Assembly (NCBI GenBank): GCA_965637545.1
Contig: OZ281494.1
Location: forward strand, 13,206,001-13,270,000
Direction of reading: 5' to 3'
Source of the DNA: Phallusia mammillata
Lineage: Eukaryota
Length of the DNA: 64,000 nucleotides
Positions 6,001 through 9,000 of this stretch are shown in pieces (positions within the stretch are counted from its first letter, which is position 1; every line of letters begins with the position of its first letter). A program made the position numbers.

Positions 6001-9000
6001 ACCGCTGATCAAAGTCGAGGAAAATCCAGAAACACCAGATGCTGAGGAAGATCCACCACTAATTGCAATCTCTGAAATATTTTCCTCCTACAAAAAGACG
6101 AAATCAGATGATGATGTGATATTTATTAAGGATTCCCCTCCAGCCAAGTCTAAGTCAGACGAGAAAATTATCAAACAAAAACCGCTGTCAGCTCGAAAGA
6201 TAAAAATGGAGCACCATGAAGTTATAGACTTGACATCCGATGACGAACACAGGCAAGATCACGAAACTAAAAGTGAGTCCCCTTCCAAAGCTGCTAAGAT
6301 CGTTTCTAAACCTTCAATGAAATCGCCTACAGCGGAAGAAGACCGCCTGAGGCTAATTCAGGATGATGTTGAAATTCTTCTTCAAATGGGAATCCCAAAA
6401 TATCGCCATCGCTCTATTAGGAATAAACGCCATAGAACAGATAACATGAACAGTTCGGAAGACGAGATTTCTGGGAAGAAAAGAAGATGTCACCAAACTA
6501 GGAAAAGTTCCAGTGAAGATCCTGTTATTCCAGATGCTCCACTGCCTTCTGAAATGAAAGAAGTCATTCCCGAATTGCCACAAAACATCCCTGGAAACTC
6601 CACGGAAACGAGTGCAGAGAACTCGCAACTAAAAAAACGAAGCAGACTGGCTATTCCAAAATCAAAACCTCCAAGAATGGACTTGGTTTATACTTATCAC
6701 CTTAAACGTTTACGTAGAAATGATGTTGGTGTCACTTCGTATTCTCCTCAATTTCTTGCAAAAAATGCGTCGATTCTTAAACGTACCAAGCGTTGCAAAG
6801 TTGTTCTTTCCGATATTTTCTCCATTAAGTCGTGCATTGATAAAGTAACGAAGTCGTGATAAGCCATTTTTTCTACTGCCATCGCCATAAATACATTCCA
6901 TATTCGTTTTATGTATTGTGCATACAAAATTTTAGTTATGACAGGTCAATTCTTTTATTGGTTAAGACAGGTCAAGTAATTCTGCAATCACCGTCAGTGG
7001 GATAAGACAGAAGTGCAGAATCAGTTTCACATGTATTTTACACCATTTGCTCTAAACATGGCAAACAAACATGGAATCCCAAAGTTAGAACTTGGGCTAG
7101 ATACCCCAGCTATGTGGTTAAATGATTGTACACACCAAACGATAGGTCATGTTTTGCTAGTCGGCAAAGATTCGGGGTCACTAAATAGCATTCCTGGTCA
7201 GATTAACAACCTCTTGCATAATTATCGGGTGCAATTGATATGTGATTACCAAAAAAACCACTGCTGGTGCACATACGTTTGTTATAAGCCTATAATAATA
7301 ATTTGCCCCGCAACAAACGCAATATTTTGTCAATATCTTTTTCGCCACCGATGTCTTGCACAGGGGAGTGCAACGAACATTATATATTGTATTTTTTCAC
7401 ATTCTGGAGTACGCTCACACGGACACCTCATTTGTTGAATCAAAAAATCCCCCAAAAAACTTTGTATGTAGTGTCAAAAACACAAAGAGTGCTGTAAGAA
7501 ACTTCTAGAAACTATAGTTATCAAACAAATCTTTTTAGAGACCTTGGCCACGGGTAAATTTTCAACAGGCTTTTAGAAGGCACAATTCGCTCAAAGAAAT
7601 CACATGACGCCAAAGAAGCAGTTTTATGCAACAAGACACCAACGGCAAAGTGAAGAAGAAACCTGGACACACACGAATAATCGCCAACCGTGCGAACAAT
7701 AAAAAAACGATTTTAACCCGAATTAGAATACATAAGCTAAATGTTCCTGCTGAAAGCGTTTATGTTTGGTTAAAAAGGAAGGAAGTCTTGTGTTACGTCA
7801 TCTCGTTCGTGCCCTTCGTAAACACGCTGTTTTATGTGGACCAGAAACAACCTTATACGAATGGTCATTGTAGCGACCTATATCCTGTTTAATTACTTGA
7901 TTAGAGTGTGAGCTAATTAACACTGACAAAACTAAGATATTCTATGCATTAAACAACAGGTCGCTAGTGAGTTCTATTTTACCGCTGTGAAAAGTCTCTA
8001 GTCAGGACTTCACAGTACGTTGACCCACTTTAATTGTTAGCTGCTTGTTGGTAGCATTTCTGTTTTCTGTAACTTTGTTACCAAATGTTTTTTTGGCCAT
8101 CAACCTGTGCCAACTTGCTATGTTAATGTCGACCACCCACAGCGATGTTGGCGCCAGGAGTAGGTAAACCTCGCTATTTACAACCATATAAGAGAAAAAG
8201 GCGACGTTTGCTTCTGATGTTGACCCAGTTCAAACAAAAACATGGTAAGAATTGGTTCCAGGTCCGGAAGTATCTCTGATGGTTGTAGTAGTGTGGTGGA
8301 TTGGGGATGGATTACTTATTCAACATTTTAGTTGCTAGTACCTACAATGCGACCAGGCCTTTTTCCCCTGCGTGTTCTCGTCCTACTGTTTAGGACCTAA
8401 ACAAACAGACATTGCAGATGTTGATTGTTTTGTCTATTGATTCTAATTAAACCTCATAAACAGCAATAGAATAGAATGCACTGCGTACAGGGGCTCGAGA
8501 ATTCTAGGTTTAAAAAGTAAGAATGCAACTTGTGTAGGTCCCACTAAATATTCAGTTATTTCAAGTCTCGCTTGCCAACGACTAACGCATGAGGCACAGA
8601 ATACTGAAAAGCTATTTTATAAGCCAGTGCTTCCCAAAGTGTGGGCCATGGCCCAGTACTAGGCCACCAAGACATTTTCAATGGGCCACAGAGCATTTGA
8701 ACAGATTCTACTGTTTTGTTATACTGTAGATATTATGCGTTTTGTTTTGAAAAACATAATATTTGCAAAACAACAATTATTTAGCAAGAAAGGTCATTGA
8801 CTTCTAACACTGATTTTTAACTGCTGGGTGGGAGCAGTTCAAAGTGGGTGAGTAGTCCAGCATGTGAGTAGCGGGAATTGAGAAGTATCCATTTATTGAA
8901 CTAGCTTACTTTTCAAAAAAACACTTAGTAAGTAATCTATGGTTTAACCGTTACTTGTCCTTTGCTTTGATCAGTGGTTCTAAAACGGTGCAACAAAACA

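What the first reader, a model, noticed from the sequence alone, without database searches (positions are those of the whole stretch)
8381..8402. Fossil hAT excision footprint readable against the duplicate arm
The right arm reads, on the minus strand, ttctcg-tcctaaac-[487-bp MITE]-tcctaaac-aaac. The left arm reads ttctcg-tccta-ct-gtttagg-a-cctaaac-aaac. That is a trimmed TSD plus an inverted TSD copy centred on the complement of the base next to the element. This is the signature of hairpin-mediated hAT excision (Ac, Tam3, Hermes). It implies the MITE inserted before the duplication and was later excised from one arm in the germline.
Basis: partly seen in the sequence, partly recalled or inferred. 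Interest (0 to 1): 0.65.

Follow-up and report, generated by a model that had tools for sequence, protein, structure and literature searches.

The report
Transposon excision scar in sea squirt
One copy of a duplicated DNA segment still holds a small hAT-type jumping element, and the other copy has at the same spot the palindromic scar such elements leave when they cut themselves out; it is a clean example of a mechanism that is already well known.

Summary
The right arm (minus strand) reads ttctcg-TCCTAAAC-[487-bp element, 16-nt TIR CAGGGGTTCCCAACCT]-TCCTAAAC-(aaac)n. The left arm reads ttctcg-TCCTA-ct-GTTTAGG-A-CCTAAAC-aaac at 8381-8402. The arms are an inverted duplication, 5877-8735 and 25298-17796, about 94% identical.

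The element passes every hAT test I could run: 8-bp TSD, CAG-type TIR 15 of 16 identical to a named hAT family, a TSD fitting NYYTARRN, and no coding capacity.

The scar has the published Ac/Ds features. Both TSD copies are partly kept, there is an inverted copy of the flank, and its centre is the complement of the base next to the element. The palindrome is in fact 8+1+8 (8387-8403). Only five such palindromes occur in 64 kb.

There is an internal control. Two other insertions in the right arm face clean single-TSD empty sites in the left arm.

The claim that the element inserted before the duplication is the most economical reading but is not shown. Two different MITEs occupy one identical site in the two LTRs of a nearby retroelement, so target sites are reused here.

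The window is probably Phallusia mammillata. The mechanism is known and the interest is modest.

The parts
8381..8402 (+). Excision footprint: TCCTA (left TSD, 3 nt lost), ct (filler), GTTTAGG (inverted copy of the flank), A (centre), CCTAAAC (right TSD without its first base). It is 14 nt longer than an empty site would be.
8387..8403 (.). Perfect 8+1+8 palindrome tgtttagg-a-cctaaaca inside the footprint.
   Evidence: it folds as a 7-bp hairpin, z = -1.98
5877..8735 (+). Left arm of the inverted duplication. It holds the last ~980 bases of the 1050-codon ORF 3707-6859 and ~1.9 kb downstream of it.
17796..25298 (-). Right arm of the inverted duplication. It is enlarged by three insertions (a 487-bp MITE, a 719-bp MITE and an LTR element), and its copy of the ORF tail is interrupted.
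18150..18636 (-). 487-bp non-autonomous hAT-type element (MITE). It has 16-nt perfect TIRs (CAGGGGTTCCCAACCT) and the subterminal motif CGTACCAC four times; 4 of that motif's 5 occurrences in the window lie inside it. It has no Pfam-recognisable ORF.
18637..18644 (-). TSD copy tcctaaac, on the left as read on the minus strand.
18142..18149 (-). TSD copy tcctaaac, on the right as read on the minus strand. It runs into an (aaac)6 microsatellite; the left arm has (aaac)2.
20189..20907 (-). Control 1: a 719-bp hAT-like MITE with TIR TAGGGC... (18 of 20 bases) and 8-bp TSD cttatcac. The left arm has a clean empty site with a single cttatcac at 6693-6700.
21478..25106 (+). Control 2, and the virus-like stretch: an LTR retroelement remnant with TG..CA ends and 5-bp TSD CTTGG. 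The 5' LTR is 21478-22354 and the 3' LTR is 24571-25106. The left arm has a clean empty site with a single ccaag near 6140. Described only.

Best explanation
The 22 bases at 8381-8402 are the repair scar left when a hAT-type cut-and-paste element was excised from the left arm. The same element (487 bp) still sits at the homologous site of the right arm.

The order of events I think most likely:
1. The MITE inserted at TCCTAAAC and duplicated those 8 bp.
2. The ~2.9-kb segment that carried it was duplicated in inverted orientation.
3. In the left arm, a hAT transposase supplied from elsewhere in the genome cut the element out and sealed each flank as a DNA hairpin.
4. The hairpin on the right flank was nicked about 8 nt from its tip on the 3' side. 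When it unfolded, this gave an inverted copy of the flank (tGTTTAGG) around a centre base A, the complement of the T that had touched the element.
5. The left flank lost 3 nt (AAC).
6. The two ends were joined by end-joining with 1-2 unexplained bases (c or ct).
7. The scar was inherited.

Shown: the sequences, their register, the hAT features of the element, and the clean empty sites of the two control insertions. Inferred: the hairpin steps (from published hAT biochemistry), the order of insertion and duplication, and germline transmission.
For: (a) The filled site and the scar are in exact register between arms that are 96% and 95% identical on either side.

(b) hAT identity of the element:
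- 8-bp TSD and 16-nt CAG-type TIR.
- TIR 15 of 16 identical to hAT-N3_AC (CAGTGGTTCCCAACCT) and close to SPIN in the Anolis table. The TSD TCCTAAAC fits that table's NYYTARRN (one passage read).
- 13 TIR-like matches in the window against 0.75 expected.
- 6 of 6 paired CAG-type elements in the window have perfect 8-bp TSDs with a central TA. The background for NNNTANNN is 7.2% of positions.

(c) Scar anatomy equals the published Ac/Ds footprints: deletions plus palindromic insertions centred on the complement of the base next to the transposon. Arms of up to 20 nt occur in yeast, where 66 of 140 footprints had arms of at least 3 nt (PMC5873905, passages). Hairpins on flanking DNA and end-joining repair for hAT are described in PMC5499845 (passages).

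(d) Rarity: 5 such palindromes in 64 kb.

(e) Internal control: the 719-bp MITE and the LTR element of the right arm face clean single-TSD empty sites in the left arm, with a gap of exactly 727 = 719 + 8. An insertion made after the duplication therefore looks different from what is seen at 8381-8402.

(f) The reverse history fails. Removing the element and one TSD from the right arm gives ttctcg-tcctaaac-aaac, which lacks the 14 extra bases of the left arm. The palindrome therefore cannot be the target into which the MITE inserted (my reasoning).
Against: - No outgroup, second individual or read data could be examined, so no ancestral state is observed.
- No hAT transposase is in the window: 0 hAT hits among the 89 of 102 stop-to-stop frames of at least 75 codons that I scanned. 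The other 13, on other frames inside the long ORFs at 29.2-35.3 kb, were not scanned.
- There is no second full copy of this 487-bp element in the window, so its family, age and mobility are unknown.
- One or two bases (c or ct) are not explained by the hairpin model.
- An 8-nt arm is long compared with most published footprints; the longest in C. albicans was 3 nt.
- The perfect TSDs and TIRs of the right-arm copy do not date it. With about 3% change per lineage I expect 1.4 changes in 48 bases, so zero changes has a probability of about 0.24 (my arithmetic).
- Same-site reuse by different MITEs is seen in the two LTRs. This weakens the step 'same copy, therefore before the duplication'.
Confidence: 0.75

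Rival explanations
1. It is an excision scar, but not of the ancestral copy. After the duplication, a hAT element (the same family or another) inserted independently at the same preferred target TCCTAAAC in the left arm and later left. The right-arm MITE is then a separate insertion.
For: - Target reuse is seen directly. The two LTRs of the retroelement carry two different MITEs (608 bp and 301 bp, with different TIRs and unalignable interiors) at the identical site with the identical TSD AACTAGAG.
- Target preference is strong. 5 of 6 CAG-type TSDs fit NNYTARNN, against a background of 1.9%.
- The left arm has only 50 NNYTARNN and 11 NYYTARRN sites.
- MITE density is high. The right arm gained two MITEs of its own, and a third sits inside its LTR insertion.
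Against: - It needs two insertions and one excision where one insertion and one excision suffice.
- Given an insertion somewhere in the left arm, the chance of hitting this one site is roughly 1 in 11 to 1 in 50 even with the preference.
- In the LTR case only about 6 preferred sites compete (3 + 4, with the TSD counted twice). That coincidence is therefore much cheaper than this one.
Confidence: 0.12
2. The two arms are not paralogues. They are two diverged haplotypes of one locus that the assembler placed in one contig in inverted orientation. The filled site and the scar would then be alleles.
For: - The arms differ by about 6% and by several transposon presence/absence differences. This is the pattern expected of alleles in a very polymorphic species.
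- High heterozygosity of ascidians is recalled, not checked here.
Against: - The window has no N.
- The repeat is short (about 2.9 kb of shared sequence), lies inside the contig, and is separated by about 9 kb of unique spacer with unique sequence on both outer sides.
- It covers only the tail of the ORF. Two more distant paralogues lie in the same window, so local duplication is a habit of this region.
Confidence: 0.06
3. There was no transposon excision in the left arm. A replication template switch (fold-back copying) made the inverted copy, and the MITE inserted only in the right arm.
For: - Template-switch mutations that create short inverted copies are known (recalled; no paper read here).
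- The inserted ctgtttagg would be an exact inverted copy of cctaaacag if the flank had one fewer aaac unit (my reading).
Against: - The centre of the palindrome falls on the very base that abuts the element in the other arm, and one palindrome arm is the TSD itself.
- With 5 such palindromes in 64 kb, the coincidence is of the order of 1 in 10,000.
- The loss of 3 nt from a second TSD copy (TCCTA) has no place in this model. An empty site has only one TSD copy, whereas the left arm shows parts of two.
Confidence: 0.03

Closest known systems
Ac/Ds (maize hAT) excision footprints, as catalogued in plants, S. cerevisiae and C. albicans (PMC5873905, passages read; Coen 1986 and Lazarow 2012 are cited there and were not read)
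   Same: Both TSD copies are partly kept, with short deletions and a palindromic insertion whose centre is the complement of the base next to the element. No element sequence is left behind.
   Different: This is a natural, inherited scar in an animal genome, read against a paralogous copy rather than a laboratory revertant. The arm length of 8 nt is longer than most plant and all C. albicans footprints (3 nt at most), but within the yeast range (up to 20 nt).
SPIN / hAT-N3_AC group of non-autonomous hAT elements (Anolis carolinensis table, PMC3014272, one passage read)
   Same: The 16-nt TIR is 15 of 16 identical to hAT-N3_AC (CAGTGGTTCCCAACCT) and close to SPIN (CAGYGGTTCTCAACCT). The TSD is 8 bp and fits NYYTARRN. 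The size of a few hundred bp is similar.
   Different: The host is an ascidian. I held no sequence of those elements, so interiors were not compared, and family membership beyond the TIR and target level is untested.
Hermes (housefly hAT) cleavage chemistry
   Same: Hairpins form on the flanking DNA (PMC5499845, passages). An odd-length palindrome with one unpaired centre base is what a first nick one base into the flank would give. That one-base offset is recalled from Zhou et al. 2004, which was not seen here.
   Different: No biochemistry exists for this element, and the transposase is unknown.
Excision footprints found by comparing related genomes (Asian and African rice, PMC4423477, passages read)
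   Same: A past excision is inferred from a filled site and a scarred site. Most excisions there were imperfect: only 8 of 94 putative excisions were perfect.
   Different: There the comparison is between species and mostly involves other superfamilies; hAT accounted for 5 and 4 transpositions. Here the comparison is between two arms of a duplication in one genome.
P nucleotides at V(D)J coding joints
   Same: Both come from a hairpin-sealed flank that is opened off-centre and joined by end-joining. The kinship of hAT, Transib and RAG reactions is stated in PMC5499845.
   Different: V(D)J is a domesticated, programmed somatic reaction, whereas this is a transposon scar.

Membership tests
hAT superfamily, non-autonomous element (the 487-bp element) | 8-bp target site duplication | tested here: met
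   tcctaaac on both sides, 8 of 8 identical. A TSD size of 8 for hAT is listed in PMC4423477, Table 1.
hAT superfamily, non-autonomous element (the 487-bp element) | Short terminal inverted repeats beginning CA(G), like those of named hAT families | tested here: met
   16-nt perfect TIR CAGGGGTTCCCAACCT, 15 of 16 identical to hAT-N3_AC in PMC3014272. The hAT TIR consensus 'CA' is in PMC4423477, Table 1.
hAT superfamily, non-autonomous element (the 487-bp element) | Target-site pattern of the SPIN/hAT-N group (NYYTARRN) | tested here: met
   T-CC-TA-AA-C fits. The window background for this pattern is 0.54% of positions.
hAT superfamily, non-autonomous element (the 487-bp element) | No transposase of its own; small size; subterminal repeats | tested here: met
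   The 3 stop-to-stop frames of at least 75 codons that overlap the element gave 0 Pfam families. The motif CGTACCAC occurs 4 times in the element and 5 times in the window.
hAT superfamily, non-autonomous element (the 487-bp element) | An autonomous partner in the same genome with matching ends and a hAT transposase (DDE core, hAT dimerisation domain) | not testable with these tools
   None in the window, with 89 of 102 frames scanned. No eukaryotic genome collection is open, and genome contigs holds bacteria and archaea only.
hAT-type excision footprint | Lies exactly at a site that a homologous sequence shows filled, with TSDs | tested here: met
hAT-type excision footprint | Remains of two TSD copies, where an empty site has one | tested here: met
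   TCCTA (5 of 8) and CCTAAAC (7 of 8). The control empty sites have a single copy.
hAT-type excision footprint | Palindromic insertion copied from the flank, centred on the complement of the base next to the element | tested here: met
   tgtttagg-A-cctaaaca, with centre A against the T at 18149. The criterion is worded in PMC5873905.
hAT-type excision footprint | An ancestral filled state at this very copy (outgroup, population or pedigree evidence) | not testable with these tools
   No related eukaryotic genomes or reads are available.

The most novel reading that the evidence does not exclude
This hAT MITE group may have been mobile in the germline of Phallusia recently enough to leave unmutated scars. 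It may also target so few sequence contexts that the same 8-bp sites are occupied again and again, as with the two different MITEs at one site in the two LTRs. If so, many 'filled against scarred' and 'filled by A against filled by B' pairs should exist genome-wide. Ascidians would then offer a natural catalogue of chordate hairpin repair outcomes, and the first evidence of endogenous cut-and-paste activity in this group. A search of the held library for 'ascidian' together with 'excision footprint' found 0 papers.
Probability: 0.25. Interest if true: 0.45.

Novelty: new member of a known kind. Interest (0 to 1): 0.3.

Why it matters
The scar shows that a non-autonomous hAT element was removed by cut-and-paste from an inherited chromosome of an ascidian, not merely inserted there. 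It also shows that the break was repaired through the hairpin and end-joining route known from plants, insects, yeast and V(D)J recombination.

The case is useful for teaching and as a seed for a genome-wide census, because the same duplication carries two insertions with clean empty sites as built-in controls. It does not change what is known about the mechanism.

Tried and rejected
Alternative readings of the site:
- Palindrome as the ancestral target of the MITE. Rejected because removing the element and one TSD from the right arm does not give the left-arm sequence; 14 bases are missing.
- Scar as a remnant of an internal deletion of the MITE. Rejected because there is no CAG... start and the bases after 'ctg' do not continue as the TSD.
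- Palindrome derived from the left-flank hairpin (TCCTAAA-G-TTTAGGA). This needs two adjacent substitutions (AA to CT).
- The 'ct' filler. It would vanish if the flank had one aaac unit fewer at the time, because cctaaacag is the inverse of ctgtttagg. This is possible, since the microsatellite differs between the arms (2 units against 6), but it is untestable here.

Searches that led nowhere:
- A transposase in the window: none.
- Other full copies of the 487-bp element in the window: none, only TIR-level matches and one 66-bp end match at 76%.
- Relatives of the 1050-aa ORF: 0 hits among 1208 candidates for residues 760-1050. The Atlas gave only low scores, 0.79 at best. Pfam found nothing, even at E up to 5.
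- Rfam gave 0 matches and ARAGORN 0 tRNAs.
- PMC13746493 held nothing on hAT (one irrelevant passage).

Not checked:
- The orthologous locus in other individuals or species, genome-wide copy number of the element, and the autonomous partner.
- Paper supplements are closed. The footprint tables of PMC5873905 and PMC4423477 that lie in supplements were not seen.

Handling notes:
The one exon-like frame used for a search (60190-60477) was searched alone.
- I take the contig for ascidian, not human.
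Full report
1. What is in the sequence

The left arm, + strand, reads gttctcg tccta ct gtttagg a cctaaac aaac agacattgcag around 8375-8416.

The right arm, read on the minus strand, has these parts:
- ...gcgtgttctcg, then TCCTAAAC (18644..18637).
- An element from 18636 to 18150. It begins CAGGGGTTCCCAACCT and ends AGGTTGGGAACCCCTG.
- TCCTAAAC again (18149..18142), then five further aaac units and aggcattgcag.

The element is 487 bp. A script found the same pair, with 0 mismatches in both 15-nt ends and 8 of 8 identical flanking bases.

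The perfect palindrome is one base longer on each side than stated: tgtttagg-a-cctaaaca, 8387-8403.

2. The duplication

Self-BLAST shows an inverted repeat, 5877-8735 against 25298-17796. A global alignment of 6100-8760 with the proximal right arm gives 2284 identical of 2426 aligned columns, 94.1%.

The left arm holds the last ~980 bases of a 1050-codon ORF (3707-6859) and its downstream region. The right-arm copy of that tail is 70% identical at protein level (124 of 178 residues) and is interrupted, so it is a decayed partial copy.

The right arm is longer because it took three insertions:
- The 487-bp MITE.
- A 719-bp MITE (20189-20907), with TIR TAGGGC... and TSD cttatcac.
- An LTR retroelement remnant (21478-25106), with TG..CA ends and 5-bp TSD.

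3. Internal controls

For the 719-bp MITE the alignment gap is exactly 727 = 719 + 8. The left arm has one cttatcac at 6693-6700.

For the LTR element the left arm has one ccaag.

These are clean empty sites, which is what an insertion made after the duplication leaves on the other arm. The 487-bp MITE site is different. The left arm has 22 bases where an empty site would have 8, and the extra bases are an inverted copy of the flank.

4. Is it more than chance?

Perfect palindromes with a one-base centre and arms of at least 8 number 5 in the window. Thirty first-order Markov simulations gave a mean of 2.0, sd 1.5 and maximum 7.

One of them falling on one named site, with its right arm being the TSD itself, has a chance of the order of 1 in 10,000.

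Of the 8 other small indels between the arms that I read, none has long palindromic arms.

5. What the element is

Evidence that the element is hAT-type:
- The TIR motif has 13 matches with up to 3 mismatches in the window, against 0.75 expected. None of 100 shuffles reached 13.
- Pairing ends and asking for 8-bp flanks with at most 2 differences gave seven rows, all with 0 differences.
- Six of those rows are separate elements: 14960-15436, 18150-18636, 21579-22186, 24672-24972, 45399-45760 and 60615-61310. The seventh row pairs ends of two of them.
- All 6 elements have TA at TSD positions 4-5 (window background 7.2%). Five of 6 fit NNYTARNN (1.9%) and 2 of 6 fit NYYTARRN (0.54%).
- The Anolis DNA-transposon paper lists hAT-N3_AC with the 16-nt TIR CAGTGGTTCCCAACCT, and SPIN with CAGYGGTTCTCAACCT. 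Its TSD patterns are NYYYRRRN and NYYTARRN (PMC3014272; I read the one table passage).
- The TIR here is 15 of 16 identical to hAT-N3_AC, and TCCTAAAC fits NYYTARRN.
- The element has no Pfam-recognisable frame and carries a subterminal motif four times.

Limits of this evidence:
- There is no second full copy in the window.
- There is no hAT transposase in the window. Of 102 stop-to-stop frames of at least 75 codons, 89 were scanned (86, and 3 from their first ATG).
- The other 13, on other frames inside the long ORFs at 29.2-35.3 kb, were left out.

6. How the scar fits the mechanism

[quoted passage not shown] - In yeast the arms reach 20 nt, and 66 of 140 footprints had arms of at least 3 nt.
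- In C. albicans the longest arm was 3 nt (PMC5873905, passages read).

Hairpins on flanking DNA for hAT, Transib, RAG and a MULE, opened by host enzymes and joined by end-joining, are described in PMC5499845 (12 of 15 places read).

Here the flank base that touches the element is T (18149), and the centre of the palindrome is A (8395).

The odd length, with one unpaired centre base, is what a first nick one base into the flank would give. That detail of Hermes (Zhou et al. 2004) is recalled and was not seen here.

My reconstruction is inference:
- The right-flank hairpin was opened about 8 nt from its tip on the 3' side.
- The left flank lost AAC.
- The ends were joined with c or ct as filler.

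The filler disappears if the flank had one aaac unit fewer at the time. The microsatellite now has 2 units in the left arm against 6 in the right.

7. Readings I rejected

The following readings fail, for the reasons given under Tried and rejected:
- The palindrome as the original target.
- The scar as an internal-deletion remnant.
- A palindrome derived from the left flank.
- A template switch unrelated to any transposon.

The last is kept as a rival at 0.03. It cannot explain remains of two TSD copies, and it needs a base-exact coincidence.

8. The weak link

'Inserted before the duplication' rests on parsimony.

The nearby LTR element shows that these MITEs reuse targets. Its two LTRs, about 90% alike in their shared parts, carry two different MITEs at the identical position with the identical TSD AACTAGAG.
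- One is 608 bp, with TIR CAGTGGTTCCCAACC.
- The other is 301 bp, with TIR CAGGGCTGTGCAACC.
- Their interiors do not align.

Only about 6 NNYTARNN sites exist in that LTR (3 + 4 in the two pieces counted apart, with the TSD counted twice). The left arm has 50 such sites and 11 NYYTARRN sites.

An independent insertion and excision at the same site of the left arm is therefore unlikely but not absurd. I put it at 0.12.

The perfect TSDs and TIRs of the right-arm copy do not date it. I expect 1.4 changes in 48 bases at about 3% per lineage, so P(0) is about 0.24 (my arithmetic).

Misassembled haplotypes are a further rival at 0.06. The window has no N, and the repeat is short, internal and flanked by unique sequence.

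9. Organism

An exon-like frame with a FERM_C hit (60190-60477) was searched alone. It is 100% identical over 69% of its length to a UniRef protein-tyrosine-phosphatase named for Phallusia mammillata (taxonomy).

I take the window for this ascidian or a very close relative, not for human.

10. The virus-like stretch (described only)

The stretch is 21478-25106. It has LTRs of 877 and 536 bases, each enlarged by a nested MITE, and an internal part of about 2.2 kb.

The only family hits are:
- A zinc knuckle, PF00098, E = 6.8e-05.
- A weak aspartyl-protease match, PF13650, E = 0.0025, below Pfam's cut-off.

The two hits lie in two different reading frames.

No reverse transcriptase, RNase H or integrase hit came from any scanned frame. 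The element is therefore a non-autonomous remnant that lacks recognisable pol. I did not count stops or frameshifts in it.

11. Comparison with print

Inferring past excisions by comparing filled and scarred sites is established. In the rice comparison there were 94 putative excisions, of which 8 were perfect (PMC4423477, 12 of 16 places read).

Searches of the held library:
- 'ascidian' with 'excision footprint' found 0 papers.
- 'Phallusia mammillata' with 'transposable element' found 12 papers, of which 10 were listed. None is about hAT excision by title (listing only).
- Searches listed no tunicate hAT or MITE study among their top rows.

This says only that the searched library shows none.

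12. Verdict

I put excision of a hAT-type element at about 0.9, and the full history as stated at 0.75.

The mechanism is textbook, so the finding is a new instance of a known kind. The target reuse seen in the LTRs is the more unusual thing in this window.

Noticed in passing
21579-22186 and 24672-24972 (inside the two LTRs of the element 21478-25106): Two different hAT-type MITEs (608 bp and 301 bp, with different TIRs and unalignable interiors) sit at exactly the same position of the 5' and 3' LTR with the same 8-bp TSD AACTAGAG. The LTR flanks around them align at about 90%. The simplest reading is two independent insertions into one strongly preferred target.
   Followed up: partly
21478-25106: LTR retroelement remnant (the virus-like stretch) with TG..CA ends and 5-bp TSD. 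Only a gag-type zinc knuckle and a weak protease match were found, in two different frames, and there is no RT, RNase H or integrase hit. It is present in the right arm only, and the left arm has a clean empty site.
   Followed up: partly
It splits the right-arm copy of the conserved C-terminal motif of the ORF. It contains tandem 18-29-bp repeats near both ends.
   Followed up: partly
3707-6859 (+), 29257-31578 (+), 32631-35279 (-): Three long uninterrupted ORFs (1050, 773 and 882 codons) rich in Q, N, S and P. They share short motifs such as PRMDLVYTYHL / RFDHVYKSHL and SPELRPFVD (BLASTP E = 5e-04 and 9e-05). They have no Pfam family, and a protein search of residues 760-1050 of the first ORF found no relatives. 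The Atlas places the first ORF only weakly (0.79) near NEXMIF/RESF1-like clusters.
   Followed up: partly
8741-8920 and 9328-9507: A 180-nt inverted repeat, 96% complementary with 407 nt between the arms, starts 6 bases after the inner end of the left arm (8735). Its spacer holds an unpaired TIR-like match at 9126. It is a possible foldback element at the edge of the duplication.
   Followed up: no
7868-8007: The left arm has about 124 extra bases here compared with the right arm. They include a stretch bounded by short inverted ends (tagcgacct ... aggtcgcta). It was not resolved whether this is a small insertion or a deletion in the right arm.
   Followed up: no
54772-55032 and 57352-60477 (+); MITE at 60615-61310: Exon-like frames with Peptidase_M28, FERM_N and FERM_C hits. 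The FERM_C frame is identical to a Phallusia mammillata protein-tyrosine-phosphatase. A 696-bp CAG-type MITE with TSD CACTACAC lies just downstream of that frame.
   Followed up: partly
5951-6057 and 34856-35115: Coding tandem repeats lie inside two of the long ORFs: a 54-bp unit x 2.0 at 92%, and a 132-bp unit x 1.9 at 77%.
   Followed up: no
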